Below are positions 5,201 through 57,040 of a DNA stretch of 64,000 bases, piece by piece. The position numbers were made by a program, and so were the translations under genes. The notes under the pieces are model-generated. The model saw only the letters and a list, made by a program, of their open reading frames with translations, searched no databases and was not told the DNA's origin. Source of the stretch: Candidatus Zipacnadum vermilionense (GTDB taxonomy: Bacteria; Armatimonadota; Zipacnadia; Zipacnadales; Zipacnadaceae); NCBI GenBank assembly GCA_029821755.1, contig JALGSV010000017.1, positions 7,429-71,428 of the forward strand, read 5' to 3'. How positions within the stretch are numbered: the first letter of the stretch is position 1; each line of letters opens with the position of its first letter.

Positions 5201-5669
5201 TCAGGTTATTGACCACACCCGGACGTTGACCTTCGAGCTAAGCCCGCCGATCCTGTACGAGCTGGGCCTTAATCCGGCGCTGGAATGGGTGTGCGAGGCC
5301 ACCACCAGCCGCCATGGCCTGCCCTGCTACTTAGAGGGCACCCCCAAGCTCCTACCCCTGGCCGACGACGTGCGGGTGGTGCTGTTCCAGGGCGTGCGGG
5401 AACTGCTGAACAACACGGTCAAGCACGCGCAGGCCGGCCGGGCGACTGTAGCCGTGCGGCGCGAAGAGAACTGGGTCCACATCACGGTGGAGGACGACGG
5501 GGTGGGCTTTGACACCGCCGACCTCGGCCGGGCCGTGGGGGAGAAGCAGTCCTTCGGCCTGTTCAACATCCGCGAACGCCTGCAGTACCTGGGTGGCTAC
5601 GTCGAGATCGAGTCCACCCCGGGCGAGGGGACGCGGGTAACACTGACCGCGCCGCTGGTCGAGGAGTAG
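2271..5669 (+). CDS. multi-PAS/GAF sensor histidine kinase (HisKA_3 + HATPase_c, NarL-type partner)
   Basis: Long ORF. The likely start is ATG 2271 (MNDSPHDW...), just after a short upstream ORF stop. It has repeated PAS-like segments. The H-box is HDHVSQTLALAK and is followed by a C-terminal GHKL ATPase block (N, G1, G2: GEGTRVTL). Confidence 0.85.
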   Translation: MNDSPHDWQRQEARRLETRVAESARILDGLMRSSFTPLVLLDPNLNFVRVNEAYAQACAKEVEDFPGHNHFVWYPSEELEATFRQVVESKQPWETEARPFVFPDHSEWGTTYWDLSLTPLLDDQGKVEYLVFSLKDVTERVTAQQELEEHRQHLEDLVSQRTGELRESEQRYRTVADYAYGWEWWMWPDGSFAYVSPSAERVTGYPAQSFMLDPAFYHTITHEEDVAGLEEHEREAMANERPRAYEFRIVRQDGQIRWLEHICQAVYDTEGNFAGRRGSNRDVTARKQVEAERQATLELLRLVNSGQDLTSLLREATGFLQRLSGCDAVGIRLRDGGDFPYFETTGFSADFVAKETHLCATDERLGPLTDEQGNPRLECVCGAVLSGRVDPSLPCFTPAGSFWTNSTTDLLAGLRRDQLGAAFRGRCVKEGYESVALVPFRVGDEVLGLVQFNDRGRDRFTLDDISCFERLTSNLAVAVAQRQAEAERERLLHDLEVERARFAAVLEQAPLGIIVGEAPSGKLILSNAEVERIFRHSFIPSADIGEYRAWQGLHPDGQPYEPGEWPLARALTSGEVVRDEEVDIIRGDDTHGTISLNAAPVRDADGKIVAGVVAFGDITYRRWAEEELHKYQEHLEELIDERTRELEETASQLAEQHAFSEAVLATVATLIMVLDNQGRIVRFNRACEETTGYTFEEVEGRPFWDFLVLPEEADQVRDTWQELINNLANRNENHWVTKDGGRRLISFNNTVLVGPEGLVEYVIASGLDVTEHRELEQALAGSEEKYRSLVNEANVMVLSMNPAGELTFMSPYALKFFGYTEEEVLGRNALGIIVPETDSEGHDLSGMVSEIAGRPDAYGYHENENITKNGQRMWMSWSNQPLYGAEGEVVGLLSIGVDRTEQKRAEEMLHDYRESLRSLASELALAEERERRRIAVGIHDHVSQTLALAKMRLGSLRRSSLGLPRDESLAEVEKLVDQVIDHTRTLTFELSPPILYELGLNPALEWVCEATTSRHGLPCYLEGTPKLLPLADDVRVVLFQGVRELLNNTVKHAQAGRATVAVRREENWVHITVEDDGVGFDTADLGRAVGEKQSFGLFNIRERLQYLGGYVEIESTPGEGTRVTLTAPLVEE

Positions 5670-5791
5670 GCGCGGGAGGGGCCGGATACTTCGCCCGCTG
5701 GCGTGGGCTCGTATGCGGCCCCCAGGTGAACCGTTGCGCCGCGTGCGTAGCCGGCCCCCCCCGGCGGACCCGCTGCCCAAGGAGAAGCACC

Positions 5792-6445
5792 ATGAGCATG
5801 AAGGTAATCATCGTAGACGATCACCAGCTATTCCGGCAGGGCCTCCGGGCACTGCTGGAGGGCGAGTCGGACATGGAGGTCGTGGGTGAGGGGGAGAACG
5901 GCCACGAAGCGGTACGGCTGTGCAAGCAACTCAAGCCCGAGGTGGTGGTGATGGACGTGGGGATGCCGGAACTCAACGGCATGGAGGCCACCCGGCAGTG
6001 CCTGGCGGAGCACCCGAAGGTCAAGATCCTGGCGCTGTCCATGCACGCCGACCGGCGCTTCGCTTCCGGCATGCTCCGGGCGGGTGCCTCCGGCTACCTG
6101 CTCAAGGACGCGGCCTTCGACCAGCTCATCGAGGCCATTCGCGCCGTGGCGGCGGGCCAGATCTACCTGAGCCCGGCCGTCACCGAGGTGGTGGTGGATG
6201 ACTACGTCCACCGCCTGGCGAGCGGCGCGGAAAGCGCCTTCTCGGTGCTTTCCGCCCGCGAGCGCGAGGTGCTCCAGTGCCTGGCCGAGGGTCTCAGCAC
6301 CAGGGAGATCGCCGAGGCCCTGCATGTAAGCGCCAAGACCATCGAGACCCACCGGCAGCAGGTAATGAACAAGCTAGACATCCACAACGTCGCTGAGCTA
6401 ACGAAATATGCAGTGCGCGAGGGGCTGACTTCGCTGGAGCCGTAG
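5792..6445 (+). CDS. response regulator, NarL/LuxR family (REC + LuxR HTH)
   Basis: MSMKVIIVDDHQLFRQGL... receiver domain with the phospho-acceptor Asp context VVVMDVGMPELNG, and a C-terminal LuxR-type HTH (REREVLQCLAEGLSTREIAEALHVSAKTIETH). AAGGAG sits 7 nt upstream. It lies immediately downstream of the kinase. Confidence 0.9.
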   Translation: MSMKVIIVDDHQLFRQGLRALLEGESDMEVVGEGENGHEAVRLCKQLKPEVVVMDVGMPELNGMEATRQCLAEHPKVKILALSMHADRRFASGMLRAGASGYLLKDAAFDQLIEAIRAVAAGQIYLSPAVTEVVVDDYVHRLASGAESAFSVLSAREREVLQCLAEGLSTREIAEALHVSAKTIETHRQQVMNKLDIHNVAELTKYAVREGLTSLEP

Positions 6446-6513
6446 ACGAGGGCGCCGGACCTCTAATCGCAGGCGGGCGTCGCACTCGGGACGCACCGCC
6501 GGGAGTTCGCGGG

Positions 6514-7179
6514 ATGATCAAGGGGCAGCAACAGACACGGGTGGAGCCGGTCGAGATCACTGTGGACGGGGCTCGGTTACAGGGAGACCTCTCCCTGCCA
6601 CCGCAGGCGTCCGGTCTGGTGCTATTCGCGCACGGCAGCGGCAGCAGTCGGCATAGCCCCCGCAACCAATATGTCGCTGAGACCCTCCAGCAAGAGGGCT
6701 TGGCGACGCTCTTGTTGGATTTGCTCACCACCGAAGAGGAGGCGGTGGACGCGTACACCCGCCACTACCGCTTCGATATCCCCCTCCTGGCCGGCCGGTT
6801 GGTGGGAGCCACCGACTGGGCGGCCCACGACGTGCGCACGGTCTCCCTGCCGGTGGGCCATTTCGGCGCCAGCACCGGGGCGGCGGCGGCACTGGTCGCG
6901 GCCGTAGACCGTCCGGAGGTGCTCCGCGCTATCGTCTCTCGCGGCGGCCGGCCGGATCTGGCCGGCGCGGCACTCTCTCAGGTCATAGCCCCCACCCTCC
7001 TGATCGTAGGCGGCTACGACACCCCCGTCATCGCCCTCAATCAGGAGGCCTACAACCAGTTACCCGACGGTAAGGAAATGATGATCGTCCCCCGCGCCAC
7101 GCACCTGTTCGAGGAGCCCGGCGCCCTGGAGGAGGTCGCGCGGCTGGCCGGCGAGTGGTTCCTGCGGCACCTGAAATAA
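6514..7179 (+). CDS. alpha/beta hydrolase (dienelactone-hydrolase-like)
   Basis: 221 aa. It has the LVLFAHGSGSSRHSPRN and GHFGASTGAAAAL (GxSxG) motifs and the conserved C-terminal His region RATHLFEEPG. Confidence 0.7.
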   Translation: MIKGQQQTRVEPVEITVDGARLQGDLSLPPQASGLVLFAHGSGSSRHSPRNQYVAETLQQEGLATLLLDLLTTEEEAVDAYTRHYRFDIPLLAGRLVGATDWAAHDVRTVSLPVGHFGASTGAAAALVAAVDRPEVLRAIVSRGGRPDLAGAALSQVIAPTLLIVGGYDTPVIALNQEAYNQLPDGKEMMIVPRATHLFEEPGALEEVARLAGEWFLRHLK

Positions 7180-36308: not shown

Positions 36309-38097
36309 CTACCGGTACATCCCCCGGATCCTCTCGGCGAACCTCTCCGCCACGGCTTTCCTGCGCACCTTCATCGTGGGCGTGAGTTCCTCTTCCTCAA
36401 TCGTCAGTTCTCGCTCCAGTAGGACGAAGCTCTTGATGCGCTCGAAGTCGGCCAGATGCTCGGTGAGCCGGTTGATCTCCCCCCGCACTAGAGCCTGCAC
36501 CCGCTCGCTTTGCGCCTGCCCCGCGCAATCCTCCGGCACGGCATGTCCGTGCTCCCGCGCCCAGGCTTGTACCCTCTCCACCGCGGGCACCACCAGGGCG
36601 GTTACGTACGGGCAGTGGTCTCCGACTAGCACCACCTGGGCGAGGTAGGGACTCGCCACCAGGGCGCTCTCGATCGGCTGCGGCGCCACGTTCTTCCCGT
36701 TGCTCAGCACGAGGATGTCCTTTAACCGGTCGGTGATGCGCAGGTGCTGCGTCTCGTCCAGTTCGCCGATGTCACCGGTGTGCAGCCAGCCCTCCTCATC
36801 CAGGGCCTCGGCGGTCTCCTCCGGCCGCTGGTAGTAGCCCTGCATCACGTTCGCGCCCCGGACCAGGATCTCCCCCTGCGGGCTCAGGCGCAGTTCGACT
36901 CCGGACAGCGCGGACCCGACCGTTCCCAGCCGGCTGCGGCCGGGCCGATTGACGGTCACCACCGGCGAGGCCTCCGTTAAGCCATAGCCCTCGAGGATAG
37001 GCAAGCCGAGGGCGTGGAAGAACCACTCCGTCGCTGGGGCCAGCGCCGCCCCGCCAGAAATAAAGTACTTCATCCGCTGAAACCCCATCGCCCGGTGCAG
37101 CCTCCGGAAGACCAGCCGGTGGGCCAGCTTCCACTGCGCCCGCAGCCCCAGCCCCGGCGTCCGCCCCTCCTGCTCCGCCTGCACCCGCCGCGTACTCACC
37201 TGTAGCGCCCAGGCAAACAATCGCTGCCGGCGCGGAGGCAGCTTCCCCACCTGGTCGAGAATCGCCTCGTGGAAGGCCTGGTACATCCGCGGCACCAGGA
37301 TCATATGGGTGGGCTGCGCCTCCCGCAGATTCTCCCGCAGCCGCCGCAGGCTCTCGGCGAAGGCCACTTGCGCTCCAGCGGCCAGCGGCAGATAGTACCC
37401 CGCCAGCCGCTCGAGGCAATGGTTGAGCGGCAGGAATGAGAGCAGTAGGTCCTCCGGGGTAAAGTGCAGCACCTCCTGGCACGAGACCAGGTTGGCCATG
37501 AAGTTGCCGTGGGTGAGCAGCACGCCCTTGGGATCGCCGGTGGTGCCGCTCGTGTAGACGATGCTCGCCAGGTCCTCCGACCGCACCACCTCGGCCTGCC
37601 GGTGGTGTTCCTCCTCGCTTCGGGGCGCTTCCGCCCCCCGCCGCAGGGACCTCCGCAAAGCTGACGACGCCCGCCTCCGGCGTCTCGGGAGCGTCCATGA
37701 CCACGATCAGGAGGTCGGGGCAAGCCTGCCGGACCTGCCGCGCTTTCTCCAGTTGCGTCCGGGTGGAGACGATCAGCATGGTCGCGCCGCAGTCGGCGAC
37801 GATGAAGGCCACCTGGACAGCGGGGAGGCTGGTGAAGATGGGGGCATCCACCGCTCCGAGCGCTAGCACAGCCAGGTCGGCGACGGCCCATTCCGGCCGG
37901 TTCTCGGCCAGCAGCACCACCCGGTCCCCGGCCTGCAGCCCGAGAGCCCGCAGGCCAGCGGCGAACTGCCGCACGCGTGCGGCCAGCTCCCCGTAGCTGA
38001 TCGCCCGGTAGCGCCCGCCCTCCCCATACAGCAAAGCCGGCCGCTCCCCATGGCGCTGCACCGACTCCAGGAACATTCGGTTGATGGTACCAGGCAT
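36309..38097 (-). pseudogene. long-chain-fatty-acid--CoA ligase (FadD-like AMP-binding enzyme) interrupted by a single +1/-1 frameshift near 37641-37660
   Basis: Two adjacent minus-strand ORFs in different frames carry the N-terminal half (MPGTINRMFLESVQRHGERPALLY...SFAEV) and the C-terminal half (...RSEDLASIVYTSGTTGDPKGV...). Removing one C from GGTCCCTG restores SFAEVLRRGAEAPRSEEEHH. The site lies in a C/G homopolymer context, so a sequencing error is equally possible. Confidence 0.55.
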
Positions 38098-38198
38098 GAC
38101 GCGCCTATTCGCCGCGGACAGCCCGGTGGCCTTCGCGAGGAGGCCTCCCACCCCTCCAGCGCGAATACCCCCCCCAAACGTTCTCGGAGGTGTCTGCC

Positions 38199-49307: not shown

Positions 49308-50480
49308 CTAGCAGATCTCCAGGTAGTCCTTGTCCGGCAGAGCCGGGAAGGGCGCGGTGGGGAGGGTTTGATACCAGTAAGCTACCGAAGCGAGGTCGTC
49401 TTGGAGCGGGAGGTAGCGGCCGCCACTGCGCCAGCCGAGGGCCTGGATGGTTACGCGCAGGTCCTGCTCAAAGCGGATGGGATCCATGATATGCCAGCGG
49501 TATAGCCCAAAGCGCTGCTGGGGCTGGTAGAGCCCGTCGGGGCGCAGCACCTGCGGCAGGCCGGCGTAGGGCGTGGTGAACTCCCGGTAGCCCCCCTGGT
49601 CCTGGCCCACGTCGAAGTTGTAGGAGCCGCAGAAGTAGTCCTCCGTCCCCGTCCCACAGATGGTGGGGAACTCGTCGTCCCCATCCAGGTAGAACTTGAT
49701 CTCCCCCTCGCCCCACCAGCCGGAGTTGTTGACCCCCCAGGCCATGTAGGTGCCCACGTATTGCCCCCAGCCTTGGATGCCGTCCACAACGGTGTAGACC
49801 TCCCGGTAGGGCAGCGGATTGACGCGCCGGAACTGCGCGTGGAAGTAAGCGGCGTCCTCGGGGACCTCGGTTAGGGTGTAGTCAAGCTGATAGTAGCAGG
49901 TGACCGGCTCGGCGTCGATATTGGTCAGGGTGACCCGGCAGGACTTGCGGAAGGGCATCTCCCAGTAGCAGTTGAGGGCGCTGCCGGGGTTGACGCAGAC
50001 GGGGAGGGAAGAGACCTGGGCGTACTTGCCCCAGCCGCAGGCGAAGAAGTCGCCGACCGGGCACTCGACGGAGGGCTGGTCCTGGCCGTCCCAGTAGAGG
50101 CGGAGAATGCTGAAGCGCCAGTTGCCGGTGACGGTGATCCAGAGGTGCTGGATCGCGCCGGGGCCGGTGATAGCGGCCAGCTCGAAGGTCTCGCCGGGCT
50201 CGACCCGCACCGAGGGGGAGACTTTCCAGCCCTGGCCGAGATCGCGAGCGCAGTTGGCGCCGGTGCCCTTGGTGGCCATGGCGGCTTTGCCCTTTTCGCC
50301 GGTGAAGTTCTCCGCGCAGATCGAGCGGGTCTGGGCGCGAGACAGACGCGAGAGGTTGCCGAGGTGGAGTCCAAGTCCGTTGAAGGGGGTCGTGATGGGT
50401 ACCTCCGAAGTTGAGAGCACAGTTCCAACAGTGTTCGGCGAGGCGCGCTGCGGGTCCTTCTTCATCTCTCTGGCGCCCAT
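49308..50480 (-). CDS. DUF2961 / glycoside hydrolase family 172 protein
   Basis: The characteristic blocks are WGEGEIKFYLDGDDEFPTICGTGTEDYFCGSYNF and GLYRWHIMDPIRFEQDLRVTIQALGW. Confidence 0.75.
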   Translation of the reverse strand: MGAREMKKDPQRASPNTVGTVLSTSEVPITTPFNGLGLHLGNLSRLSRAQTRSICAENFTGEKGKAAMATKGTGANCARDLGQGWKVSPSVRVEPGETFELAAITGPGAIQHLWITVTGNWRFSILRLYWDGQDQPSVECPVGDFFACGWGKYAQVSSLPVCVNPGSALNCYWEMPFRKSCRVTLTNIDAEPVTCYYQLDYTLTEVPEDAAYFHAQFRRVNPLPYREVYTVVDGIQGWGQYVGTYMAWGVNNSGWWGEGEIKFYLDGDDEFPTICGTGTEDYFCGSYNFDVGQDQGGYREFTTPYAGLPQVLRPDGLYQPQQRFGLYRWHIMDPIRFEQDLRVTIQALGWRSGGRYLPLQDDLASVAYWYQTLPTAPFPALPDKDYLEIC

Positions 50481-50565
50481 GCGCCAGCCCTGGTAGTGGC
50501 GATTGTCGAGGGCCGCTTACTTGCCGTAGGGGGCCTGCGCCCGCGGTCTGGTACCCATTCAATCA

Positions 50566-51918
50566 TCAATCTCCCGCTCCCCCCTCCGCCATCAGCTTGG
50601 CGGCCGCCGGGAATCGCCTTTGGACTACCTCAAAAACCTCCGTGGCCTGGCGGCGCAGAGCGCGTACCACGTCACGGATCTGGGTCCCGCCCTCGGCTAC
50701 TTCAAGCAGGGAGGGGAACACAAGCGGGAGGCGCTCCTCCGGGGTGGAAAGGACACGCGTGGCCCAGCTCAGCAGATCCACCAGGTTGCGGTAGGCATCG
50801 GTGTGGAGGTAGGCCTCGGGGCTGGCCAGCAGGTCCAGGGCGTAGACCTCGTCCGGCAGGCCGGCGGCGAGCAGCCCAATGCGCCGCAGCAGGCAGGGGA
50901 GACAGCCGCCGCACTGGCGTTGCTGGCGCCCGATGGCCCAGCAGGAGACGGTCTGGGCGATCTCCGCCGGGCTGAGCACCGGCTGCAAGAAGGCGCGGAT
51001 GACCTCGCCCTTGGTCTGGTAGGCCAGGGGATTGAGCAGGCGCACCGGCCAGCCGGCGTGGTCTAGCAGGCGGGTGAACTCCGCGAGCACCGCCGGATGG
51101 GTGCTGTGGGTGGTGAAGCTGCCGCTGCGCGCCTCGGACAGGGGGAGGGCCGAAGTGAGCAGGCAGTTGTCGCAGAGATAGACCTCATCCACGCCCTCGG
51201 CCCGGGCGGCCAGCGCCCCCAGGGTCATGAACAGGAGCGAACGACAGCGTCGGGAGGTCTCCCGCTCGGCAGGCGCGGGGAAGGGGAGGGCGCCGGTGCG
51301 GTGGGAACTGGGCGCCAGCCGCACTTGCGACAGGCAGAACTGATCCGGCCACTTGTCGGCGAAGGTCTGCGTTACCCGATCTTGGGCCTGGGCGACGGTG
51401 GGATTGCCGGAGCGGTGCATGACCAGGCGGGGGCAGCGTTCAGTGCGCAAGAGCATGGCGGCAGCGGCGGCGGAGTCGAGGCCTCCCGAGAGCAAGCAAA
51501 TGCCGTCGGTGTGCAGCCACGGTTCGCCCGAGGCGAGGGGTGTATCTTCCTCCGCTCGGGGGTAGAAACGGAAGCGGAAGCTGTCGCCGGTCATGCGCTG
51601 CAGCAGGCGCGCGAGGGCGGGCTCCTGTCCCGTCCAGAAGTCGAGCTCGCGCACCGCCAAGACCAGCTCGATCTCCCGCACCCAGGCTTCGTTCTCCCCG
51701 CGACGCACGGCCAGGTCGGCCAGGTAGACGGCGGTGGTTACGTCCAGCAGGTCCAGGGCCAGGTCCTCCGACTCACCGGCAGGCAGAGGCAGATCGGTGC
51801 AATCGAGCACGGCATTGCGCCGATCCGAGCGCCAGTCCAGCGCCCAGGCGGCGCGGCCTTCGGCCGCGGCCCGGGCGCTTTCCGGCAGACCCTCAGCTTG
51901 GAGTAGCAATACTGCCAA
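50566..51918 (-). CDS. QueC-like PP-loop ATP pyrophosphatase with about 155-aa N-terminal extension and C-terminal Cys4 zinc motif
   Basis: The PP-loop ICLLSGGLDSAAAA starts near residue 165. The QueC-type zinc ligands are SCWAIGRQQRQCGGCLPC (C-x9-C-x2-C-x2-C). The TTG start is 6 nt after the stop of the upstream gene. Confidence 0.7.
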   Translation of the reverse strand: MAVLLLQAEGLPESARAAAEGRAAWALDWRSDRRNAVLDCTDLPLPAGESEDLALDLLDVTTAVYLADLAVRRGENEAWVREIELVLAVRELDFWTGQEPALARLLQRMTGDSFRFRFYPRAEEDTPLASGEPWLHTDGICLLSGGLDSAAAAAMLLRTERCPRLVMHRSGNPTVAQAQDRVTQTFADKWPDQFCLSQVRLAPSSHRTGALPFPAPAERETSRRCRSLLFMTLGALAARAEGVDEVYLCDNCLLTSALPLSEARSGSFTTHSTHPAVLAEFTRLLDHAGWPVRLLNPLAYQTKGEVIRAFLQPVLSPAEIAQTVSCWAIGRQQRQCGGCLPCLLRRIGLLAAGLPDEVYALDLLASPEAYLHTDAYRNLVDLLSWATRVLSTPEERLPLVFPSLLEVAEGGTQIRDVVRALRRQATEVFEVVQRRFPAAAKLMAEGGAGD

Positions 51919-51924
51919 CTGCCG

Positions 51925-52680
51925 TCAACCCCCCGATAGAACGGTCAGCGAAGCTTCCACACCTTTTCGTACGAGTGGCTCCAACTCCCGGACCCGCTGG
52001 TCCCGGACCAAGGTCATGATCTCCTGCAAGTCCTGCTCGTGCCGGCGCAACACCGGCCCCGAACCTCCCTGCCGCACCAGATCGCCCACCCCCACCACCA
52101 GCCGCCCCGCGTCCTGCACGGTCGGCAGGCCCGTCTGGCCTACGAAATCGCTCACATCCCGCGTCACCAGGTAGCGGAAGGCCTGGTCCAAGCCGTTCCC
52201 GGTGTACTGGCCGGCCAGGGCCGACAGATCGCCCTCCCGGGCAAAGCGGGAGTAGCGGGCGAGCACGGTGGCGGCGGGGAAGTCGTTCCAGTCGGAGGTG
52301 GTGCTGAGACTGTCCAGGACCGTGGGGGGCACCGCATCCAGGGCCAGGGTGCCGGTTACAGAGGGTGCTCGGTCGGCAGCGATGCTTTCCAGCGCGGCGG
52401 CCCGCACGAAAACGGCGAGGTCCAGGGCGGGTATGCCACTGCTCACCGGAGGCTCCGGCAGGGCTGCGCCCGGCTCGGCCAGGGCGGCGCTGGAGTACAG
52501 GACCGCGTCCAGGCAACGCACCGTGGCCGCATCGTGTAGACGCGCGCGGGAAGCTTCATCCAGCGCGGCGACGATGCGGCCGACCACCTCACCAGGTGCG
52601 GGGTTGGGGCGCTGGTACAGCTCTCGTACCAGGTCCCACTCCCGCGTGGCCGGCGAGCGATGCGAGGTTGAGGTGCCCAT
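51925..52680 (-). CDS. hypothetical protein ending in Gly-Gly (...KGVEASLTVLSGG*), cotranscribed with the QueC-like ATPase
   Basis: The frame reads 251 aa from the ATG with GCAGGAC upstream (or 259 aa from TTG 52704). The C-terminal 13 residues resemble the MoaD/ThiS/CysO tails (..GDEVAFFPPVTGG). Confidence 0.5.
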   Translation of the reverse strand: MGTSTSHRSPATREWDLVRELYQRPNPAPGEVVGRIVAALDEASRARLHDAATVRCLDAVLYSSAALAEPGAALPEPPVSSGIPALDLAVFVRAAALESIAADRAPSVTGTLALDAVPPTVLDSLSTTSDWNDFPAATVLARYSRFAREGDLSALAGQYTGNGLDQAFRYLVTRDVSDFVGQTGLPTVQDAGRLVVGVGDLVRQGGSGPVLRRHEQDLQEIMTLVRDQRVRELEPLVRKGVEASLTVLSGG

Positions 52681-53110
52681 AGGTCCTGCCGTAAAGCTAA
52701 ACAATCAGAGTCAGCCCCTCCCCATTCCCTATCCTGCCCGCAAATCCTTCCCCACTACCAACGCTGGTATCGGCAGTCGGGCCTGCTGCCGGCAGTCGCG
52801 CTCGTGCCCATCCCGTCACCAACTCGTAACGCCTGCGCAAACATCACTCGGCAGGAAACCTCTCTTCCTCCGACGAATCACGATCCACGGGGCTCAAGGC
52901 CCGCCGGTTGTCCACGGGGAGGGGCCGGATTCACTTCGCTCATCACGGTCCCCCCAGTGATCCATCTACAGTCCTGGGTCACACTCACCCCCTGGCACTG
53001 CTGGAAAAGTACGCCTCCCGCGTGGTACACTGTCACCTAGAGGACGCGGTGGTGGACAAGCAGAGACTGACCGGAGCATGACGAATCATGCCCCTACATG
53101 GAGCACAATT

Positions 53111-54850
53111 ATGAGTGACACCTTGGGCCAATATCAACGCGGAGAGACCACCATTCCCACTACCCAGGCCGCGTGGCATGTGTATGGGGCGGGGATGGAG
53201 AACGTGGGGCGGGAGGGGAAGCCCGTCGAGATTCCTGTGAACCGTCCCGGTCCAGAGCAACTCCTGGCGCGGGTGGACGCCGCGGGAATCTGCTTCTCCG
53301 ACATCAAGATCATCAAGCAGGGCGGGGACCATCCGCGGCTGTACGGGCGCGACCTGGCCAACGATCCCATCGTGCCGGGGCATGAGGTGGCGCTGACTAT
53401 CGTGGAGGTCGGGGAGCAGTTGGCCGGGCAGTACCACGTCGGCGACCGGTTTGTGGTGCAGGCTGACATCTATGTCAACGGCAAGAACCTGGCCTTCGGG
53501 TACATGCTGCCGGGAGCGTTTGAGCAGTACGTGGTGCTGGGCGAGGAGGCTCTGCGCGGGGATGACGGGGCGTACCTCATCCCGATGCAGGACGAGACCG
53601 GCTATGCCGAGGCGGCTCTGGCCGAGCCGTGGGCATGCGTAGTGTGCGCGTATCGAACCGACTTTCGGCGGACGCTGAAGGAGGGCGGGGTGACGTGGAT
53701 AGTGGGCGGGGCAGACCGTACCGGGTATACGCTGGGCGCCCTGTCCGAGGGACCAGCGCCGGCGCGGGTCGTGCTGACCGAGGTGGCGCTGGAGCTGGCG
53801 GCCGAGATCACCGCCGCGGCGGAGAAGTGGGGCGCGACGATGGTAGCTACGCCGCCGCTGGCTGAACTGAACGTCACCACCGTCCAGGCGCAGGAGTCGC
53901 CGGAGGGCTTCGACGATATCATCGTCCTCGGCCCGCAGCCGCCGGAGCTGATCGAGGCGCTGGCGGCGGCGCTGGGCCGGGAAAGCGTACTCTCTCTGAT
54001 GACCGACCAGCCGCTGGCCCGGCCGGTGGAGATTGACCTGGGGCGGGTGCATTACGACTACACGCGCTACTACGGGCACGCGACGCCGGACCTGGCGGCG
54101 GCGTACCGGGAGACGCGCGCGCCGAACTTCACGCCGGGCGGGACCGCCTGGATCATGGGCGGGGCGGGGCCGATGGGGCAGATGCATACGCAGATCGCCG
54201 CGCAGGCCAGCGAGGGGCCGGGGACCATCGTGGTCAGCGATCTGGACGACGACCGCCTGGAGCTGGTTCGGGAGCGGCTGGAGCCGGTGGCCCAGGCGCG
54301 GGGGCGGCGGATGATCCTGCTCAACCCGAAGGCCCTGGGGCAGGAGGCCTTCGAGGCGCGGCTGCGGGAGATCGCGCCGGAGGGCTTCGACGACATCCAC
54401 GTGCTGGTGCCGGTCCCGGCGCTGATCGCCAGCGCCGTGCCCTTCGCGGGGAAGAACGGGTTGGTGGAGATCTTCGCGGGGATTCCGCGCGGGTCGGTGG
54501 CGGCGACGGACCTGTCGCCCGTGGCGCTGCACGGGGTGCGCTTCCAGGGCACCAGCGGCTCGGCCATCGAGGACCTGCGCACCACGCTGCACATGACCGA
54601 GGCGGGCGAGATAGACACCAACGCCTCGGTGGCGGGTATTGGGGGGATTGAGGCGGTGCACGAGGGGCTGGAGACGGTGCTGGCGATGGGCCTGCCGGGC
54701 AAGATAGTCATCTACCCGCAGATCAATGGCCTCCCCCTGACGCCGCTGACGGAGTTGGCGGAGAAGATGCCAGCGATAGCGGCGCTGCTAGGGCCGGGAG
54801 GGATTTGGACCAGGAAAGCGGAGAAGGCGCTGTTGGAGAGGTATTTGTAG
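53111..54850 (+). CDS. zinc-type alcohol-dehydrogenase-like protein (GroES-like N-domain) with a long C-terminal region
   Basis: GGAG lies 8 nt upstream. GICFSDIKII...PIVPGHEVALTIVEVGE matches the ADH_N fold, and a Rossmann-like GGAGPMGQMHTQ follows. About 580 aa. Confidence 0.6.
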   Translation: MSDTLGQYQRGETTIPTTQAAWHVYGAGMENVGREGKPVEIPVNRPGPEQLLARVDAAGICFSDIKIIKQGGDHPRLYGRDLANDPIVPGHEVALTIVEVGEQLAGQYHVGDRFVVQADIYVNGKNLAFGYMLPGAFEQYVVLGEEALRGDDGAYLIPMQDETGYAEAALAEPWACVVCAYRTDFRRTLKEGGVTWIVGGADRTGYTLGALSEGPAPARVVLTEVALELAAEITAAAEKWGATMVATPPLAELNVTTVQAQESPEGFDDIIVLGPQPPELIEALAAALGRESVLSLMTDQPLARPVEIDLGRVHYDYTRYYGHATPDLAAAYRETRAPNFTPGGTAWIMGGAGPMGQMHTQIAAQASEGPGTIVVSDLDDDRLELVRERLEPVAQARGRRMILLNPKALGQEAFEARLREIAPEGFDDIHVLVPVPALIASAVPFAGKNGLVEIFAGIPRGSVAATDLSPVALHGVRFQGTSGSAIEDLRTTLHMTEAGEIDTNASVAGIGGIEAVHEGLETVLAMGLPGKIVIYPQINGLPLTPLTELAEKMPAIAALLGPGGIWTRKAEKALLERYL

Positions 54851-55035
54851 GGGTACGTTTCAATACGCAGAGCGTTTAGTAACGCACATGACAAGCGCGG
54901 CTTTCGCAGAAGAAGGCCGCGTTTGCGCTGTGCTTGCACTCCTATTTGAGCGCATATTGGCGTGCGGGCATATGAAAACACTGCCATGTTCGCTGTGCAT
55001 GCCTTTGGCATGTGTGGCAGATGGTGCGCTGTCGC

Positions 55036-55064
55036 TTGACATTTCTGCATGAATATGCTACCAT
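55036..55064 (+). promoter_or_regulatory. strong sigma70-like promoter: TTGACA-17 nt-(TGc)TACCAT, driving a low-GC two-gene cassette
   Basis: Exact -35 hexamer TTGACA, with an extended -10 TGcTACCAT. GAGGAGG follows 8 nt before ATG 55096. Local GC is about 48%. Confidence 0.6.
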
Positions 55065-55095
55065 AGAGATAGCATATTAAGAGGAGGAAAGTGAA

Positions 55096-55491
55096 ATGCC
55101 CTTTGAGCGGTTTACGAGAGGCGGCAGGAGATACAGGCCTACGGTGTCCATCAACAAGGGGGGGATAATCGGGTTTAGCAGGGGTTCGTACCACAGATTC
55201 TCTCTCGGGAGATACACGCACGTGGTCTTGTTCTACGATGCGGAAACTCGGCGAGTTGGCGTCATGCTTGCTGTAGATTCGGAGGAGCCAGGAGCCATTC
55301 CGCTCCGGCCCAGGCCAGCGGAGAGTGGCGCAGACGTGTCAGCCAAGAGCTTCTTGGACTTCTACGGGATCCCCTACCAGCACGGAACTGAGCAATACGA
55401 TCCGGAGGTAGTTGACTTCGATGGACAGAAGATGGTAGTATTCACTCTCGCAGAGGAGCCTCCGGCGGGGGAGGACTTCTTCAATGATTGA
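55096..55491 (+). CDS. hypothetical small protein (131 aa), possibly AbrB/swapped-hairpin-like
   Basis: Strong SD. GC is about 55%. PTVSINKGGIIGFSRGSYHRFSLGRYTHVVLFYD is reminiscent of looped-hinge / AbrB-type DNA-binding barrels. This assignment is tentative. Confidence 0.45.
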   Translation: MPFERFTRGGRRYRPTVSINKGGIIGFSRGSYHRFSLGRYTHVVLFYDAETRRVGVMLAVDSEEPGAIPLRPRPAESGADVSAKSFLDFYGIPYQHGTEQYDPEVVDFDGQKMVVFTLAEEPPAGEDFFND

Positions 55492-55542
55492 GTGTGTGGT
55501 GGGCTGATAGAGATTCATGCCCAGAGGAGGTGAGAAAAGCAA

Positions 55543-55941
55543 ATGGCACAATGTTCGATAGTAGAATGGAAACCGACGGTCCCGATACACATCGTGATCT
55601 GGATCATTCTCACCGAGCGGGCTCTGGGCCCTAATCGTCCTGTTACCGCAGCGGTAATCGCCGACTTGGCAGGAATTCGGGACAACGCGCAGCAAACGCT
55701 GACGCGCCGGATTATCCGGGAGATGGTTCGCCTAGGCGCGCCGATCATCGGATCGTCTCGGGGGTTCTTCGTAGCAACCGACCCTGAGCAGGTCTTTCAC
55801 GGGGGGTATTGCCTCCTTGATCGCGCTGCCGAGGTTGAGGCACATGGCCGGGATCTGCTTCAGATTCACCAGAATCTCGGGGAGCACGGCCCCAACGACG
55901 AAAACGGAGAGACCATGCGCATGCGCATGGTCTCTCCCTGA
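55543..55941 (+). CDS. hypothetical winged-HTH protein (HTH_36-like, phage/plasmid-type)
   Basis: AGAGGAGGTGA SD. ILTERALGPNRPVTAAVIADLAGIRDNAQQTLTRRIIREMVRLGAPIIGS fits the wHTH pattern found in replication/regulatory proteins of mobile elements. Confidence 0.45.
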   Translation: MAQCSIVEWKPTVPIHIVIWIILTERALGPNRPVTAAVIADLAGIRDNAQQTLTRRIIREMVRLGAPIIGSSRGFFVATDPEQVFHGGYCLLDRAAEVEAHGRDLLQIHQNLGEHGPNDENGETMRMRMVSP

Positions 55942-55944
55942 ACT

Positions 55945-55982
55945 GGCGGGCGACCGTTTCTTGATGGGGGCGGTCGCCTGCC
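55945..55982 (+). terminator. hairpin terminator GGCGGGCGACCG-(13 nt)-CGGTCGCCTGCC
   Basis: 12-bp stem with one mismatch, immediately after the stop of the 55543 gene. Confidence 0.5.
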
Positions 55983-56221
55983 GCATTATGTCAGACCAAT
56001 GGCCTGGTGTCAATGTTCCGGAGAGCCCTCCCCTCTCCTCCTCCTCGGACCCTCCTCCATGCCACCTCCCCTCCCAACCACCTCTACTTCAGCGACGATC
56101 TTGACACCCTTCGTCGGTATGTCGCCTCCGAGTCGGCAGATTGGGGCCTTTGACGACTTCTGGCAATGGGGGAGCATACCGCTGGCGTCGGGATGAGCCC
56201 CCGATCAGTCTCCCTCCTCCT

Positions 56222-57040
56222 CTACTTCACCACCTTGTTGTCCTCGTCCGTTCCGTACCACCTTGGGATCTGCACGCCGGGTTCGCCCTTGTCGAAGCCG
56301 GGGGCGTTTAGGGTGAAGTGGCCGCCGAAGGGGTCTACGAAGACCTCGCACTTGGTGTCGGCGGGCAAGGCGTTGATGGCGGTGAAGATGCCCTCCGCCG
56401 GGGCGCAGAAGTCGAACAGGCCCAGGGCCAGGCGCAGCGGGGAGTGAATGCGGTGGGCGAAGTTGGCTGGGTCGAAGTACTCCACCACCTTGGCGATCTT
56501 CTGGGGGTCCTCGCCCGCCGGCGCGTGGGGGCCCCACTCCGCGTAGCCCAGGACGGTCCAGTCAATGCGGCACAGGGCGATGGCTGCCCCGGCGGCATCG
56601 GTAAGGGGGCGCAGGCCGGCAGCGACCAGGGTCAGCCCCGCGTAGTGCCCTCCGGAGTACCCGAATAGGTGAGGTCGATGGTGTCCGGGCCGAAGGTGTA
56701 AGACAGGTTCCAGCCGTGCCCGTCGGCAGTGACCACGTTGTCCTTCACCGTAGGGGCGCCGGGCATGGAGGCGACGATATACCACTGGTTCATAGGCGAG
56801 GCGAAGACGCCGGTGGCGGTGCCTCCCTTCTCGGCCCAGACAACCTCGGTGGGCGGGGCCATGAACTCCTGCCCGGCGATGACCAGGGAGGACAGGGCAC
56901 CCTGTCCGTCCACCTGGGCAGTGTAGACGTCGGTCTGCACGGAGAAGCCGTCACCGGCGGGGGTGGACGGGTGCGGCGGTGCAGAGGGCCGCGCAGGCGA
57001 GCAAGAGCATGACAGCAAGCAGTACTGAGAGCTGGTTCAT
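56222..57040 (-). pseudogene. secreted CE7/AXE-like esterase disrupted by two frameshifts
   Basis: The signal peptide (MNQLSVLLAVMLLLACAALC, frame 0) stops after 29 codons. A believable domain continues in frame +1 (AGDGFSVQTDVYTAQVDGQ...NLSYTFGPDTIDLTY). The rest returns to frame 0, with GYSGG and the CE7-like C-terminus KVVEYFDPANFAHRIHSPLRLALGLFDFCAPAEGIFTAINAL. The shifts lie near 56960 (G5 run) and 56665. Confidence 0.5.

What the first reader, a model, noticed from the sequence alone, without database searches (positions are those of the whole stretch)
50566..52704. QueC-like PP-loop ATPase (with extra N-terminal domain) translationally coupled to a protein ending in Gly-Gly: candidate protein-conjugation / sulfur-relay-like module
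The downstream gene encodes a QueC homolog. It has the PP-loop SGGLDS and the exact QueC Cys4 zinc motif C-x9-C-x2-C-x2-C. Its adenylation core is shifted about 155 residues in by an N-terminal domain I do not recognise. The upstream gene ends ...KGVEASLTVLSGG*, six nucleotides before the QueC start, and that tail resembles the C-terminus of ThiS/MoaD/CysO beta-grasp carriers.

PP-loop enzymes adenylate carboxylates. This holds for QueC itself and for TtuA/NcsA, which use GG-terminated ubiquitin-like carriers. QueC-like proteins of defence islands (QatC, type IV CBASS Cap9) are reported to act as conjugating enzymes. No tRNA-queuosine genes (queD/E/F, tgt) are nearby, so a housekeeping 7-deazaguanine role is unlikely. 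Divergent 370-bp regulatory DNA separates the pair from the next gene.

The whole module is the best candidate in this window for an undescribed two-component modification or conjugation system. It could be defence-related, such as a minimal Qat/Cap9-like unit, or a peptide/protein C-terminal amidation or thiocarboxylation system.
Basis: partly seen in the sequence, partly recalled or inferred. Interest (0 to 1): 0.75.

Follow-up and report, generated by a model that had tools for sequence, protein, structure and literature searches.

The report
Stand-alone QatBC-like protein-modification gene pair
The two genes are a natural two-gene relative of the QatB-QatC core of the QatABCD anti-phage system, in which a QueC-like enzyme most likely modifies the N-terminal glycine of its partner. 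The partner's C-terminal Gly-Gly is not a ubiquitin-like tail; it overlaps the ribosome-binding site of the enzyme gene.

Summary

**The enzyme.** The 450-aa protein (50566-51918, minus strand) is a QatC-family enzyme:
- PADLOC QatC gives E 1.8e-55.
- Solved QatC structure 9vlk matches at E 1.8e-36.
- The AlphaFold model matches QatC 9y02_B at TM 0.70/0.74.

The "unrecognised" N-terminal domain is the known QatC extension.

**The partner.** It really starts at ATG 52680 with MGTSTSHRSPATREW. MGTS/Gly2 is the published QatB signature, whose amine enters the QatC active site. The model is all-alpha (pLDDT 90), so it is not a beta-grasp.

**The C-terminal GG.**
- It is followed by 0-4 extra residues in homologs and is absent in 9 of 40.
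- It coincides with a Shine-Dalgarno-like G-run for the coupled enzyme gene.
- Gly codons there are 77% GGR, against 38% in the gene body.

**What is new.**
- The partner's globular body shows no sequence or fold similarity to QatB.
- None of 58 genome loci with this partner type has QatA or QatD nearby. Most of these loci are from Armatimonadota.
- Flanking genes are metabolic.

I file it as a new variant of a known kind. The chemistry and the defence role are inferred.

The parts
51925..52680 (-). Partner gene. It encodes a 251-aa all-alpha protein with a QatB-type N-terminus (MGTS) but a non-QatB body. The stop codon TGA is at 51925-51927.
52615..52680 (-). Codons 1-22, MGTSTSHRSPATREWDLVRELY. 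This is the proposed substrate tail. After Met1 removal, the Gly2 amine is the inferred nucleophile.
   Evidence: Translation. Majority-residue frequency is 0.84 here against 0.55 for the rest of the protein in 37 orthologs. M1, G2, T3, S4, S9, P10 and W15 are 100% conserved. MGTS/Gly2 is essential in QatB.
52138..52179 (-). Second conserved motif of the partner, FRYLVTRDVSDFVG (residues 168-181). It is shared with the ~190-aa type and, in a looser form, with the MGH-type partner proteins of other phyla.
51929..51934 (-). GGGGGG run inside the last codons (tcG GGG GGt) of the partner gene. It is a Shine-Dalgarno-like site 10 nt upstream of the TTG start of the enzyme gene.
   Evidence: Sequence. 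37 of 40 orthologous loci have a GGAGG/GGGGG-like site (at least 4 of 5 matches), mostly 6-10 nt from the start. GGR codon bias.
50566..51918 (-). QatC-like PP-loop ATP pyrophosphatase gene (450 aa, TTG start, stop at 50566-50568).
   Evidence: PADLOC QatC 1.8e-55. NCBIfam QatC 6.7e-61 at 206 bits, below the 280-bit cut-off. PDB QatC 9vlk_A 1.8e-36. AF2 model pLDDT 90.5. Foldseek 9y02_B E 1.1e-20, TM 0.70/0.74.
51514..51918 (-). QatC-type N-terminal alpha/beta extension (about residues 1-135). It includes D56 and the motif D68-x4-R73-x5-W79-x-R81.
   Evidence: Aligned to QatC 9vlk_A residues 58 onward. Strands and helices in the model. Motifs. Described for QatC in PMC13279940 and PMC13329287.
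51472..51489 (-). PP-loop SGGLDS (residues 144-149), the ATP pyrophosphate-binding motif.
   Evidence: Essential in QatC by the S156A/S161A mutant.
51094..51111 (-). THSTHP (residues 270-275). It is equivalent to QatC S-T278-R-T280-T-H-P, the Thr pair that replaces the CDG-binding Tyr/Asp of QueC and Cap9.
50893..50943 (-). Zinc-binding Cys4 motif CWAIGRQQRQCGGCLPC (C326, C336, C339, C342), followed by LLRR.
50569..50826 (-). C-terminal helical extension (residues 365-450). By analogy to QatC, it is the platform that binds the partner protein.
   Evidence: Helices 367-447 in the model. Full-length structural match to QatC. The role in QatB binding is from PMC13279940 and is an inference here.
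52681..53077 (.). 397-nt spacer to the divergently transcribed ADH_N-domain gene (53078-54850). It presumably holds the promoter. No riboswitch or special structure was found.
   Evidence: Rfam gave 0 hits at E<=1. Fold z-score -0.91. The only sigma70-like hit lies outside the spacer at 53137-53108.

Best explanation
The pair is a self-contained QatB/QatC-like module.

**Proposed mechanism.**
1. The 450-aa enzyme is a QatC-family PP-loop ATP pyrophosphatase. It has a QueC Rossmann core, a zinc site, and QatC-specific N- and C-terminal extensions.
2. It forms a complex with the 251-aa helical partner encoded immediately upstream. The two are made in coupled fashion from one transcript.
3. Met1 of the partner is removed, and the flexible tail G2-T-S-T-S-H-R-S-P10 inserts into the enzyme's active site.
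4. The enzyme uses ATP (SGGLDS) to adenylate a carboxylate co-substrate. The Gly2 alpha-amine then attacks it, leaving an amide-linked N-terminal modification.
5. The co-substrate is 7-carboxy-7-deazaguanine by analogy with Cap9. Its identity is still unresolved even for QatC.
6. The modified partner is the functional output. The most likely biological role is anti-phage or abortive defence, as shown for QatBC alone in E. coli and P. aeruginosa.

**Shown here.**
- Family membership of the enzyme and conservation of its motifs.
- The fold class of both proteins.
- The conserved Gly2 tail.
- Operon coupling.
- Recurrence of the pair without QatA or QatD.

**Inferred.**
- Complex formation.
- The chemistry.
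- The defence role. I put this at roughly 0.55 on its own.
For: **Enzyme is QatC family.**
- PADLOC QatC 1.8e-55 and NCBIfam QatC 6.7e-61.
- PDB QatC 9vlk_A 1.8e-36 and 9zee_B 6e-30, aligned over residues 36/51-364.
- AF2 model pTM 0.92. Best Foldseek hits are QatC 9y02_B and 9y01_B (E 1e-20, TM 0.70/0.74 over the full length), ahead of Cap9 9nto_B (5e-4) and QueC 3bl5 (1.6e-3).
- All QatC-cluster motifs listed in PMC13329287 are present: D56, Dx4R..WxR, DxFxxxF, RxRxxxF, (D/E)N(C/G), HP, Px4TK and C..CGxCxxC..RR.
- The QueC motifs YxQxHxxE, VPxRN and YPDC are absent.

**Partner tail.**
- M1, G2, T3, S4, S9, P10 and W15 are 100% conserved in 37 orthologs.
- 58 of 58 genome loci of this partner type start MGTS.
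- Canonical QatB shares MGTS, and P10 in Pantoea.

**Published basis.**
- The QatB N-terminus sits in the QatC active site.
- G2D and PP-loop mutants abolish defence.
- QatBC alone defends against lambda-vir.
- An NDG-modified GTSKAY peptide was detected by MS.

**Gene organisation.**
- The stop-to-start gap is -4 to +8 nt in most loci, with a Shine-Dalgarno-like site inside the partner's 3' end.
- QatA and QatD are absent from the window and from all 58 genome loci of this partner type, including the 51 closest to the window's enzyme. They are present next to most canonical QatB loci found in the same scan.
Against: - NCBIfam QatC score is 206 bits, below the 280-bit equivalog cut-off. This is a divergent clade.
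- The partner's globular domain is not QatB.
  - NCBIfam QatB gave no hit at E<=10, while Pantoea QatB scores 1.8e-61 as a positive control.
  - hhalign of 27 against 34 sequences gave probability 0.9%.
- The QatC reaction has never been reconstituted in vitro, so the chemistry is an analogy.
- The context is not a defence island.
  - Neighbours are metabolic or housekeeping genes, with no PADLOC hits.
  - GC content is not atypical.
  - Synteny is conserved within subclades.
  - No member of this clade was found on IMG/VR viral contigs.
- No complex model could be computed with these tools.
Confidence: 0.72

Rival explanations
1. Same enzymology, meaning N-terminal Gly2 modification of the partner by the QatC-like enzyme. 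The role, however, is a lineage-specific, vertically inherited regulatory or stress function of Armatimonadota rather than anti-phage defence.
For: - The pair sits among metabolic or housekeeping genes and not in defence islands. Examples are purine biosynthesis, dnaB, and the dnaA/dnaN/recF region in 9 loci.
- There are no PADLOC hits among the window's neighbours.
- No integrase or transposase was seen.
- Synteny is conserved within subclades.
- No copy of this clade was found on viral contigs.
- GC content matches the surroundings.

Against: - Every experimentally studied QatC or Cap9 relative is an immune component.
- The distribution is patchy: about 50 species in one genome-per-species collection. 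One MAG carries two copies (L041 and L043).
- The related two-gene MGH-type modules are abundant on (pro)viral contigs. This is typical of defence cargo.
Confidence: 0.25
2. The partner is a ThiS/MoaD/ubiquitin-like carrier whose C-terminal Gly-Gly carboxylate is adenylated by the PP-loop enzyme, leading to thiocarboxylation, amidation or conjugation.
For: - The window protein ends in GG.
- A (A/S)GG-like ending recurs in many orthologs.
- PP-loop enzymes adenylate carboxylates (established knowledge).
- The first substrate of QatC is still unknown.
Against: - The fold is all-alpha and no beta-grasp is present. The last helix runs to residue 249.
- GG is followed by 0-4 residues or is absent.
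- The Gly codons double as the Shine-Dalgarno-like site of the downstream gene. They show GGR bias of 77% against 38%, p 1.8e-12.
- Canonical QatBs end in ...GERSE or ...WGDSA.
- The N-terminus, not the C-terminus, is the conserved end.
Confidence: 0.03
3. Self-ligation variant. The unknown carboxylate activated by the enzyme is the partner's own C-terminus. Gly2 then attacks it, giving head-to-tail cyclisation or polymerisation of the partner.
For: - Both a free Gly2 amine and small C-terminal residues are present.
- No first substrate has been identified for QatC.
Against: - No C-terminal conservation exists beyond what the Shine-Dalgarno overlap explains.
- An NDG-modified QatB N-terminal peptide was detected in E. 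coli.
- C-terminally His-tagged QatB still binds QatC, though its function was not tested.
Confidence: 0.03
4. Housekeeping 7-deazaguanine (preQ0/queuosine) biosynthesis by a long QueC.
For: - Pfam QueC hit at 37 bits, above the gathering threshold.
- The PP-loop and the Cys4 zinc motif are present.

Against: - The match covers only residues 275-351.
- TIGR00364 QueC scores 21 bits against a cut-off of 150.
- The QueC catalytic motifs YxQxHxxE, VPxRN and YPDC are absent.
- No que genes or preQ1 riboswitch are nearby.
- QatC does not complement an E. coli queC deletion.
Confidence: 0.01

Closest known systems
QatB-QatC core complex of the QatABCD anti-phage system (structures 9Y01/9Y02, 9VLK/9VLL, 9ZEE/9ZEF; PMC13279940, PMC13376578, PMC13639016)
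   Same: - The enzyme is homologous over its full length, including the N- and C-terminal extensions, PP-loop, Thr/Ser-x-Thr-His-Pro loop and zinc site.
- The substrate gene lies immediately upstream and is coupled.
- The partner starts MGTS with Gly2, and has Pro10 as in Pantoea QatB.
- The partner is all-helical.
- QatBC alone is experimentally sufficient for defence against some phages.
   Different: - There is no QatA (KAP NTPase) or QatD (TatD nuclease) in the window or in any of 58 related genome loci.
- The partner's globular body shows no sequence or fold similarity to QatB (NF041924).
- No long Pro/Gly-rich disordered linker of 30-90 aa is present. The model is ordered from about residue 13.
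- The enzyme is only about 30% identical to canonical QatC by tblastn and falls below the NCBIfam QatC cut-off.
- The zinc motif spacing is C-x9-C, not C-x19-C.
- The pair occurs in chromosomal, non-island contexts in Armatimonadota.
Type IV CBASS Cap9-CdnD (N-terminal deazaguanylation, NDG; 9NTO; bioRxiv 10.1101/2025.04.06.647259)
   Same: A QueC-fold PP-loop enzyme acts on the Gly2 amine of a partner protein that begins MG(G/T)S. The model matches Cap9 structurally (Foldseek 5e-4).
   Different: - Cap9 is a minimal enzyme of about 185 aa that keeps the QueC CDG-binding Tyr/Asp residues. The enzyme here is 450 aa with the QatC-type Thr/Ser loop.
- No CD-NTase, Cap10 (TGT-like) or effector gene was found among the neighbours scanned with Pfam.
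Canonical QueC (7-cyano-7-deazaguanine synthase; 3BL5)
   Same: Rossmann core, SGGxDS PP-loop and a C-terminal Cys4 zinc site. It performs ATP-dependent carboxylate activation.
   Different: - The substrate motifs YxQxHxxE, VPxRN and YPDC are missing here.
- The enzyme here has about 135 extra residues at the N-terminus and about 85 at the C-terminus.
- There is no queD/queE/queF context.
Ubiquitin-like sulfur carriers with PP-loop partners (TtuB-TtuA, Urm1/SAMP-NcsA) and ThiS/MoaD
   Same: A PP-loop ATPase is encoded next to a small-residue-terminated protein. TtuA appears among weak fold matches (E 0.02-0.05), which reflects only the shared PP-loop core.
   Different: - Those carriers are beta-grasp proteins of about 70-100 aa with a strictly terminal GG.
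- The partner here is a 251-aa helical protein with a variable C-terminus and a conserved N-terminus.

Membership tests
QatABCD anti-phage system | QatC: a QueC-fold PP-loop enzyme with QatC-specific N- and C-terminal extensions and QatC motifs | tested here: met
   PADLOC QatC 1.8e-55. PDB QatC 1.8e-36. Foldseek 9y02_B TM 0.70/0.74. Motifs present.
QatABCD anti-phage system | QatC equivalog score (NCBIfam NF041925, cut-off 280 bits) | tested here: not met
   206.3 bits. This is a divergent clade and not an equivalog by NCBI's threshold.
QatABCD anti-phage system | QatB N-terminal MGTS motif with Gly2, encoded directly upstream of qatC | tested here: met
   MGTSTSHRSP at ATG 52680. Conserved in 58 of 58 related genome loci.
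QatABCD anti-phage system | QatB globular domain (NCBIfam NF041924 / Pfam PF28083) | tested here: not met
   - No NCBIfam hit at E<=10, while Pantoea QatB scores 1.8e-61.
- hhalign probability 0.9%.
- PF28083 is not in the local Pfam copy.
QatABCD anti-phage system | QatA (KAP-family NTPase) in the operon | tested here: not met
   tblastn with two QatA queries found nothing in the window at E<0.6. None was found in any of the 58 genome loci of this partner type. No KAP NTPase domain appeared in the Pfam scans or neighbour tables.
QatABCD anti-phage system | QatD (TatD-family nuclease) in the operon | tested here: not met
   tblastn with three QatD queries was negative. No TatD domain appeared in the Pfam scans or neighbour tables.
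QatABCD anti-phage system | Confers phage resistance | not testable with these tools
   Needs cloning and plaque assays.
Canonical QueC (preQ0 synthase) | Catalytic and substrate motifs YxQxHxxE, VPxRN and YPDC, and the TIGR00364 equivalog score | tested here: not met
   Motifs absent. TIGR00364 scores 21.3 bits against a cut-off of 150.3.
Canonical QueC (preQ0 synthase) | SGGxDS PP-loop and Cys4 zinc site | tested here: met
Type IV CBASS (Cap9) | Adjacent CD-NTase substrate and Cap10. Cap9 is a minimal QueC of about 185 aa. | tested here: not met
   The enzyme is 450 aa. No nucleotidyltransferase or TGT domain appeared in the Pfam scans of the larger window ORFs I scanned across about 36.3-63.9 kb.
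Ubiquitin-like / ThiS-MoaD beta-grasp carriers | Beta-grasp fold | tested here: not met
   The AF2 model has 14 helices and no strands, with pLDDT 90.3.
Ubiquitin-like / ThiS-MoaD beta-grasp carriers | Strictly conserved C-terminal Gly-Gly | tested here: not met
   Variable: 0-4 trailing residues, and absent in 9 of 40 loci. The Shine-Dalgarno overlap and codon bias explain it.

The most novel reading that the evidence does not exclude
QatC-like enzymes have at least three unrelated substrate-protein families:
- CD-NTase.
- QatB.
- The helical family found here, together with its ~190-aa and MGH-type relatives.

Only a short Gly2 tail unites them. In Armatimonadota the two-gene module appears to be chromosomally stable within subclades, which would fit vertical inheritance. 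It lies outside defence islands and has no nuclease or NTPase partner.

This would mean that QueC-type N-terminal glycine modification is a general post-translational switch, not solely an immune device. The partner's conserved FRY.V.RD..DFVG helix-loop would then be the real effector or sensor surface.
Probability: 0.25. Interest if true: 0.7.

Novelty: new variant of a known kind. Interest (0 to 1): 0.5.

Why it matters
**The open question.** Three 2026 structural papers showed that QatB-QatC is the core of QatABCD. None could reconstitute the reaction or identify the first substrate.

**What published surveys report.**
- One census found canonical four-gene operons in 98% of cases and listed no natural qatBC-only form (PMC13434339).
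- A family-wide network analysis found that only about 34% of QatC-cluster genes lie near qatA or qatD (PMC13329287).

**What this window adds.**
- It supplies a concrete example that may belong to that unexplained remainder.
- It is a natural two-gene module in which the enzyme and the four-residue MGTS tail are kept.
- The substrate's body has been replaced by an unrelated helical protein.

**Why that helps.**
- It delimits what the enzyme actually recognises: Gly2, P10, T12 and W15.
- It gives a minimal system without accessory proteins, from a different phylum, for biochemical reconstitution.
- It warns annotators that current QatB models miss these partners.

**A practical caution.** A terminal Gly-Gly in a high-GC, tightly coupled operon can simply be the downstream gene's ribosome-binding site.

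Tried and rejected
**Partner protein: searches that found nothing.**
- Pfam, PADLOC, NCBIfam and PHROGs all gave no hit.
- A PDB sequence search gave only weak DyP-peroxidase matches (E about 0.05). I treat these as chance.
- Foldseek against PDB gave a best E of 0.34.
- Comparison with canonical QatB found nothing beyond MGTS. I used BLASTP, then hhalign with 1, 6 and 34 QatB sequences.

**Regulatory DNA.**
- Rfam scan of 50300-53300 for a preQ1 or other riboswitch gave 0 hits.
- The RNA fold of the 397-nt leader is not unusual, z -0.91.
- The promoter and terminator scan was uninformative.

**Context.**
- QatA and QatD: tblastn was negative across the whole window and in 10-kb flanks of related loci.
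- PADLOC found no defence genes among the ten window neighbours scanned.
- The IMG/VR scan found only distant QatC relatives (25-33% identity) with MGH-type partners.
- Conserved third gene: clustering of neighbours found none shared across subclades.
- The divergent ADH_N gene is shared only with the closest relatives, so I treat it as synteny rather than linkage.

**Other.**
- Looking up the source contig of the exact partner protein failed; it is not on record.
- I did not scan the window upstream of about 36.3 kb for que genes.


Full report
**Observation**

The two minus-strand ORFs are real.

The downstream one (50566-51918, 450 aa, TTG start) has these features:
- The PP-loop SGGLDS at residues 144-149.
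- C326-x9-C336-x2-C339-x2-C342, followed by LLRR.

The upstream one ends ...LTVLSGG-TGA. Six nucleotides then separate it from the TTG of the enzyme gene.

The real start is the ATG at 52680:
- The database copy is 251 aa and 100% identical.
- In 27 aligned homologs, conservation begins exactly at M-G-T-S, and upstream extensions are unrelated.

**The enzyme is QatC family**

- PADLOC QatC gives 1.8e-55.
- NCBIfam QatC gives 6.7e-61, but 206 bits is below the 280-bit equivalog cut-off.
- phmmer against PDB sequences finds only QatC: 9vlk_A at 1.8e-36 and 9zee_B at 6e-30. The alignment runs from residue 36/51 to 364, so it includes most of the "unrecognised" N-terminal domain.
- An AF2 model (pLDDT 90.5, pTM 0.92) shows four parts:
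  - an N-terminal alpha/beta domain;
  - a five-stranded Rossmann core;
  - a low-confidence loop at 258-274;
  - a C-terminal helical extension.
- Its best PDB matches are the QatC chains of the QatB-QatC complex (9y02_B and 9y01_B, E 1e-20, TM 0.70/0.74, full length). These come ahead of Cap9 (5e-4) and QueC (1.6e-3).
- Every QatC-cluster motif listed by Libby et al. (PMC13329287) is present. The QueC catalytic motifs are absent.
- The Thr pair that replaces the CDG-binding Tyr/Asp in QatC (T278/T280) corresponds here to T270/S272.

**The partner**

Its first residues, MGTSTSHRSP, carry the MGTS/Gly2 signature. Three 2026 papers identify that signature as the functional end of QatB:
- Met1 is removed.
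- Gly2 sits in the QatC active site where CdnD Gly2 sits in Cap9.
- G2D abolishes defence.
- An NDG-modified GTSKAY peptide was detected.

Conservation in 37 orthologs:
- Residues 1-22 are the best-conserved stretch, with majority-residue frequency 0.84 against 0.55 elsewhere.
- M1, G2, T3, S4, S9, P10 and W15 are invariant.

The AF2 model (pLDDT 90.3, pTM 0.88) is entirely helical with 14 helices. Only residues 1-6 are disordered. The beta-grasp idea is therefore refuted.

**The C-terminal Gly-Gly**

- In 40 orthologous loci, GG is terminal in 10, followed by 1 residue in 15, by 2 in 5 and by 4 in 1. It is absent in 9.
- In 37 of 40 loci, a GGAGG/GGGGG-like site (at least 4 of 5 matches) lies upstream of the enzyme's start codon, mostly by 6-10 nt. 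This puts it inside the partner's last codons.
- In the window it is GGGGGG at 51929-51934, 10 nt from the TTG.
- Gly codons in the last six codons are 77% GGR, against 38% in the bodies of the same genes (Fisher p 1.8e-12). The loci are phylogenetically related, so this p-value is optimistic.
- Canonical QatBs end ...GERSE or ...WGDSA.
- The simplest reading is that the terminal glycines are a by-product of the ribosome-binding site of the translationally coupled enzyme gene.

**What is unusual**

*1. The partner body is not QatB.*
- NCBIfam QatB (NF041924) gives nothing at E<=10, whereas Pantoea QatB scores 1.8e-61 as a positive control.
- A profile-profile comparison of 27 partner sequences against 34 canonical QatBs gives probability 0.9%.

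*2. The partner family is small.*
- 34 clusters were found in the 5.8-billion-protein set.
- 167 representatives were found in 1.84 billion proteins with the family profile.
- hhalign links it to shorter forms of ~215 and ~190 aa that start MGTS.S..SP.T..W, at probabilities of 100% and 98.5%.
- The family profile also reaches MGH.RLG.LP.T..W proteins of ~260 aa.
- These relatives share Gly2, P10, T12 and W15. The MGTS forms also share an F/Y..V.RD....VG motif, which the MGH forms carry in a looser form.

*3. QatA and QatD are absent.*
- A one-genome-per-species scan returned 80 loci.
- All 58 genome loci with the MGTS..SP.T..W partner type lack QatA and QatD within up to 10 kb. Most are Armatimonadota, including Candidatus Zipacnadia and bins labelled WS1. 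The rest are other phyla with the shorter partner forms.
- Most loci with a canonical QatB-like partner in the same scan have them.
- The window itself has none.

*4. Only the pair is conserved across subclades.*
- Neighbours are metabolic or housekeeping genes.
- PADLOC found no defence genes in the ten window neighbours scanned.
- GC content is unremarkable.
- Synteny is conserved within subclades: a GNAT-like gene in 14 loci and the dnaA side in 9 loci.

*5. No member of this clade is on IMG/VR contigs.*
- There, 58 of 61 QatC-like loci carry MGH-type partners, again without QatA or QatD.

**Mechanism**

By homology, I propose the following:
1. The enzyme binds its partner.
2. It activates a carboxylate with ATP at the PP-loop.
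3. It transfers the activated group to the Gly2 amine.

The carboxylate is CDG by analogy with Cap9. QatC lacks the CDG-reading residues and its substrate is unresolved, so this step is inference.

The defence role is also inferred:
- For: QatBC alone protects E. coli against lambda-vir.
- Tempering this: the non-island, subclade-syntenic context here keeps a non-immune, lineage-specific role alive (about 0.25).

**Comparison with the literature**

- A 2026 census reported 98% canonical qatABCD operons and no qatBC-only form.
- The QueC-superfamily network paper found only about 34% of QatC-cluster genes near qatA or qatD, without describing the rest.
- I found no paper describing this partner family or two-gene architecture.
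- Wassarman et al. explicitly anticipated further QueC-like protein-targeting systems.

**Verdict**

The Qat-like option is right, and the C-terminal GG carrier is wrong.
- This is a new variant of a known kind: a stand-alone QatBC-like module with a novel substrate protein.
- Interest is moderate.

Noticed in passing
window 36309-38151 (-): An AMP-binding (acyl-CoA synthetase-like) gene is split into two overlapping ORFs. 36796-38151 covers Pfam positions 3-146. 36309-37658 covers positions 148-384 plus the C-terminal domain. This points to a frameshift, a pseudogene or an assembly error.
   Followed up: no
window 55000-56000; ORFs 55096-55491 and 55543-55941 (+): A low-GC patch (0.56, against about 0.67 around it) holds two orphan ORFs with no Pfam or PADLOC hits. 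The first has a weak phrog_18159 match (E 3.7e-4). It may be a small foreign insertion.
   Followed up: partly
window 56222-57018 (-): Only a fragment of an acetyl-xylan-esterase-like (AXE1) protein is readable, across overlapping ORFs. This is a possible pseudogene.
   Followed up: no
L088-L167 (IMG/VR viral contigs); example L098 5090-7737: 58 of 61 viral-contig loci carry a partner of about 262 aa starting MGH.RLG.LP, directly upstream of a QatC-like gene, with no QatA or QatD. The QatC-like protein is 620 aa in L098, where the pair sits next to a Fic-family gene and phage genes. This looks like a prophage-borne two-gene relative that I found no description of.
   Followed up: partly
L003 (Paracoccus pantotrophus pPAN2) 3153-6825: This canonical qat locus appears degraded. 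An IS5-family element lies where qatA should be. The qatB reading frame begins MHPDPSGG rather than MGTS. A TatD ORF at 6136-6825 is missing from the plasmid gene table.
   Followed up: partly
L014-L043 and L007-L050 (Armatimonadota loci): Neighbours of the pair are subclade-specific:
- a GNAT-like ORF of about 160 aa, convergent downstream, in 14 loci;
- the dnaA/dnaN/recF region in 9 loci;
- a Cys-rich ORF of about 146 aa directly upstream in 8 loci.

None of these is present in the window.
   Followed up: partly
L041 and L043 (MAG BLK5-2.bin.37): The same metagenome-assembled genome carries two QatC-like copies on different contigs, 45% and 49% identical to the window's enzyme by tblastn.
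   Followed up: no
window 50566-51918, residues 250-252 and 269-272: The window's own subclade has DN(C/A/G) and TTHS where most of the rest of the family has ENG and STRS. These are conservative drifts in two active-site-proximal motifs.
   Followed up: partly
Pfam library used by the tools: Canonical QatB carries PF28083 in precomputed annotations. The local Pfam-A copy returns no family for Pantoea QatB. A Pfam negative therefore says nothing about QatB membership. NCBIfam NF041924 had to be used instead.
   Followed up: yes
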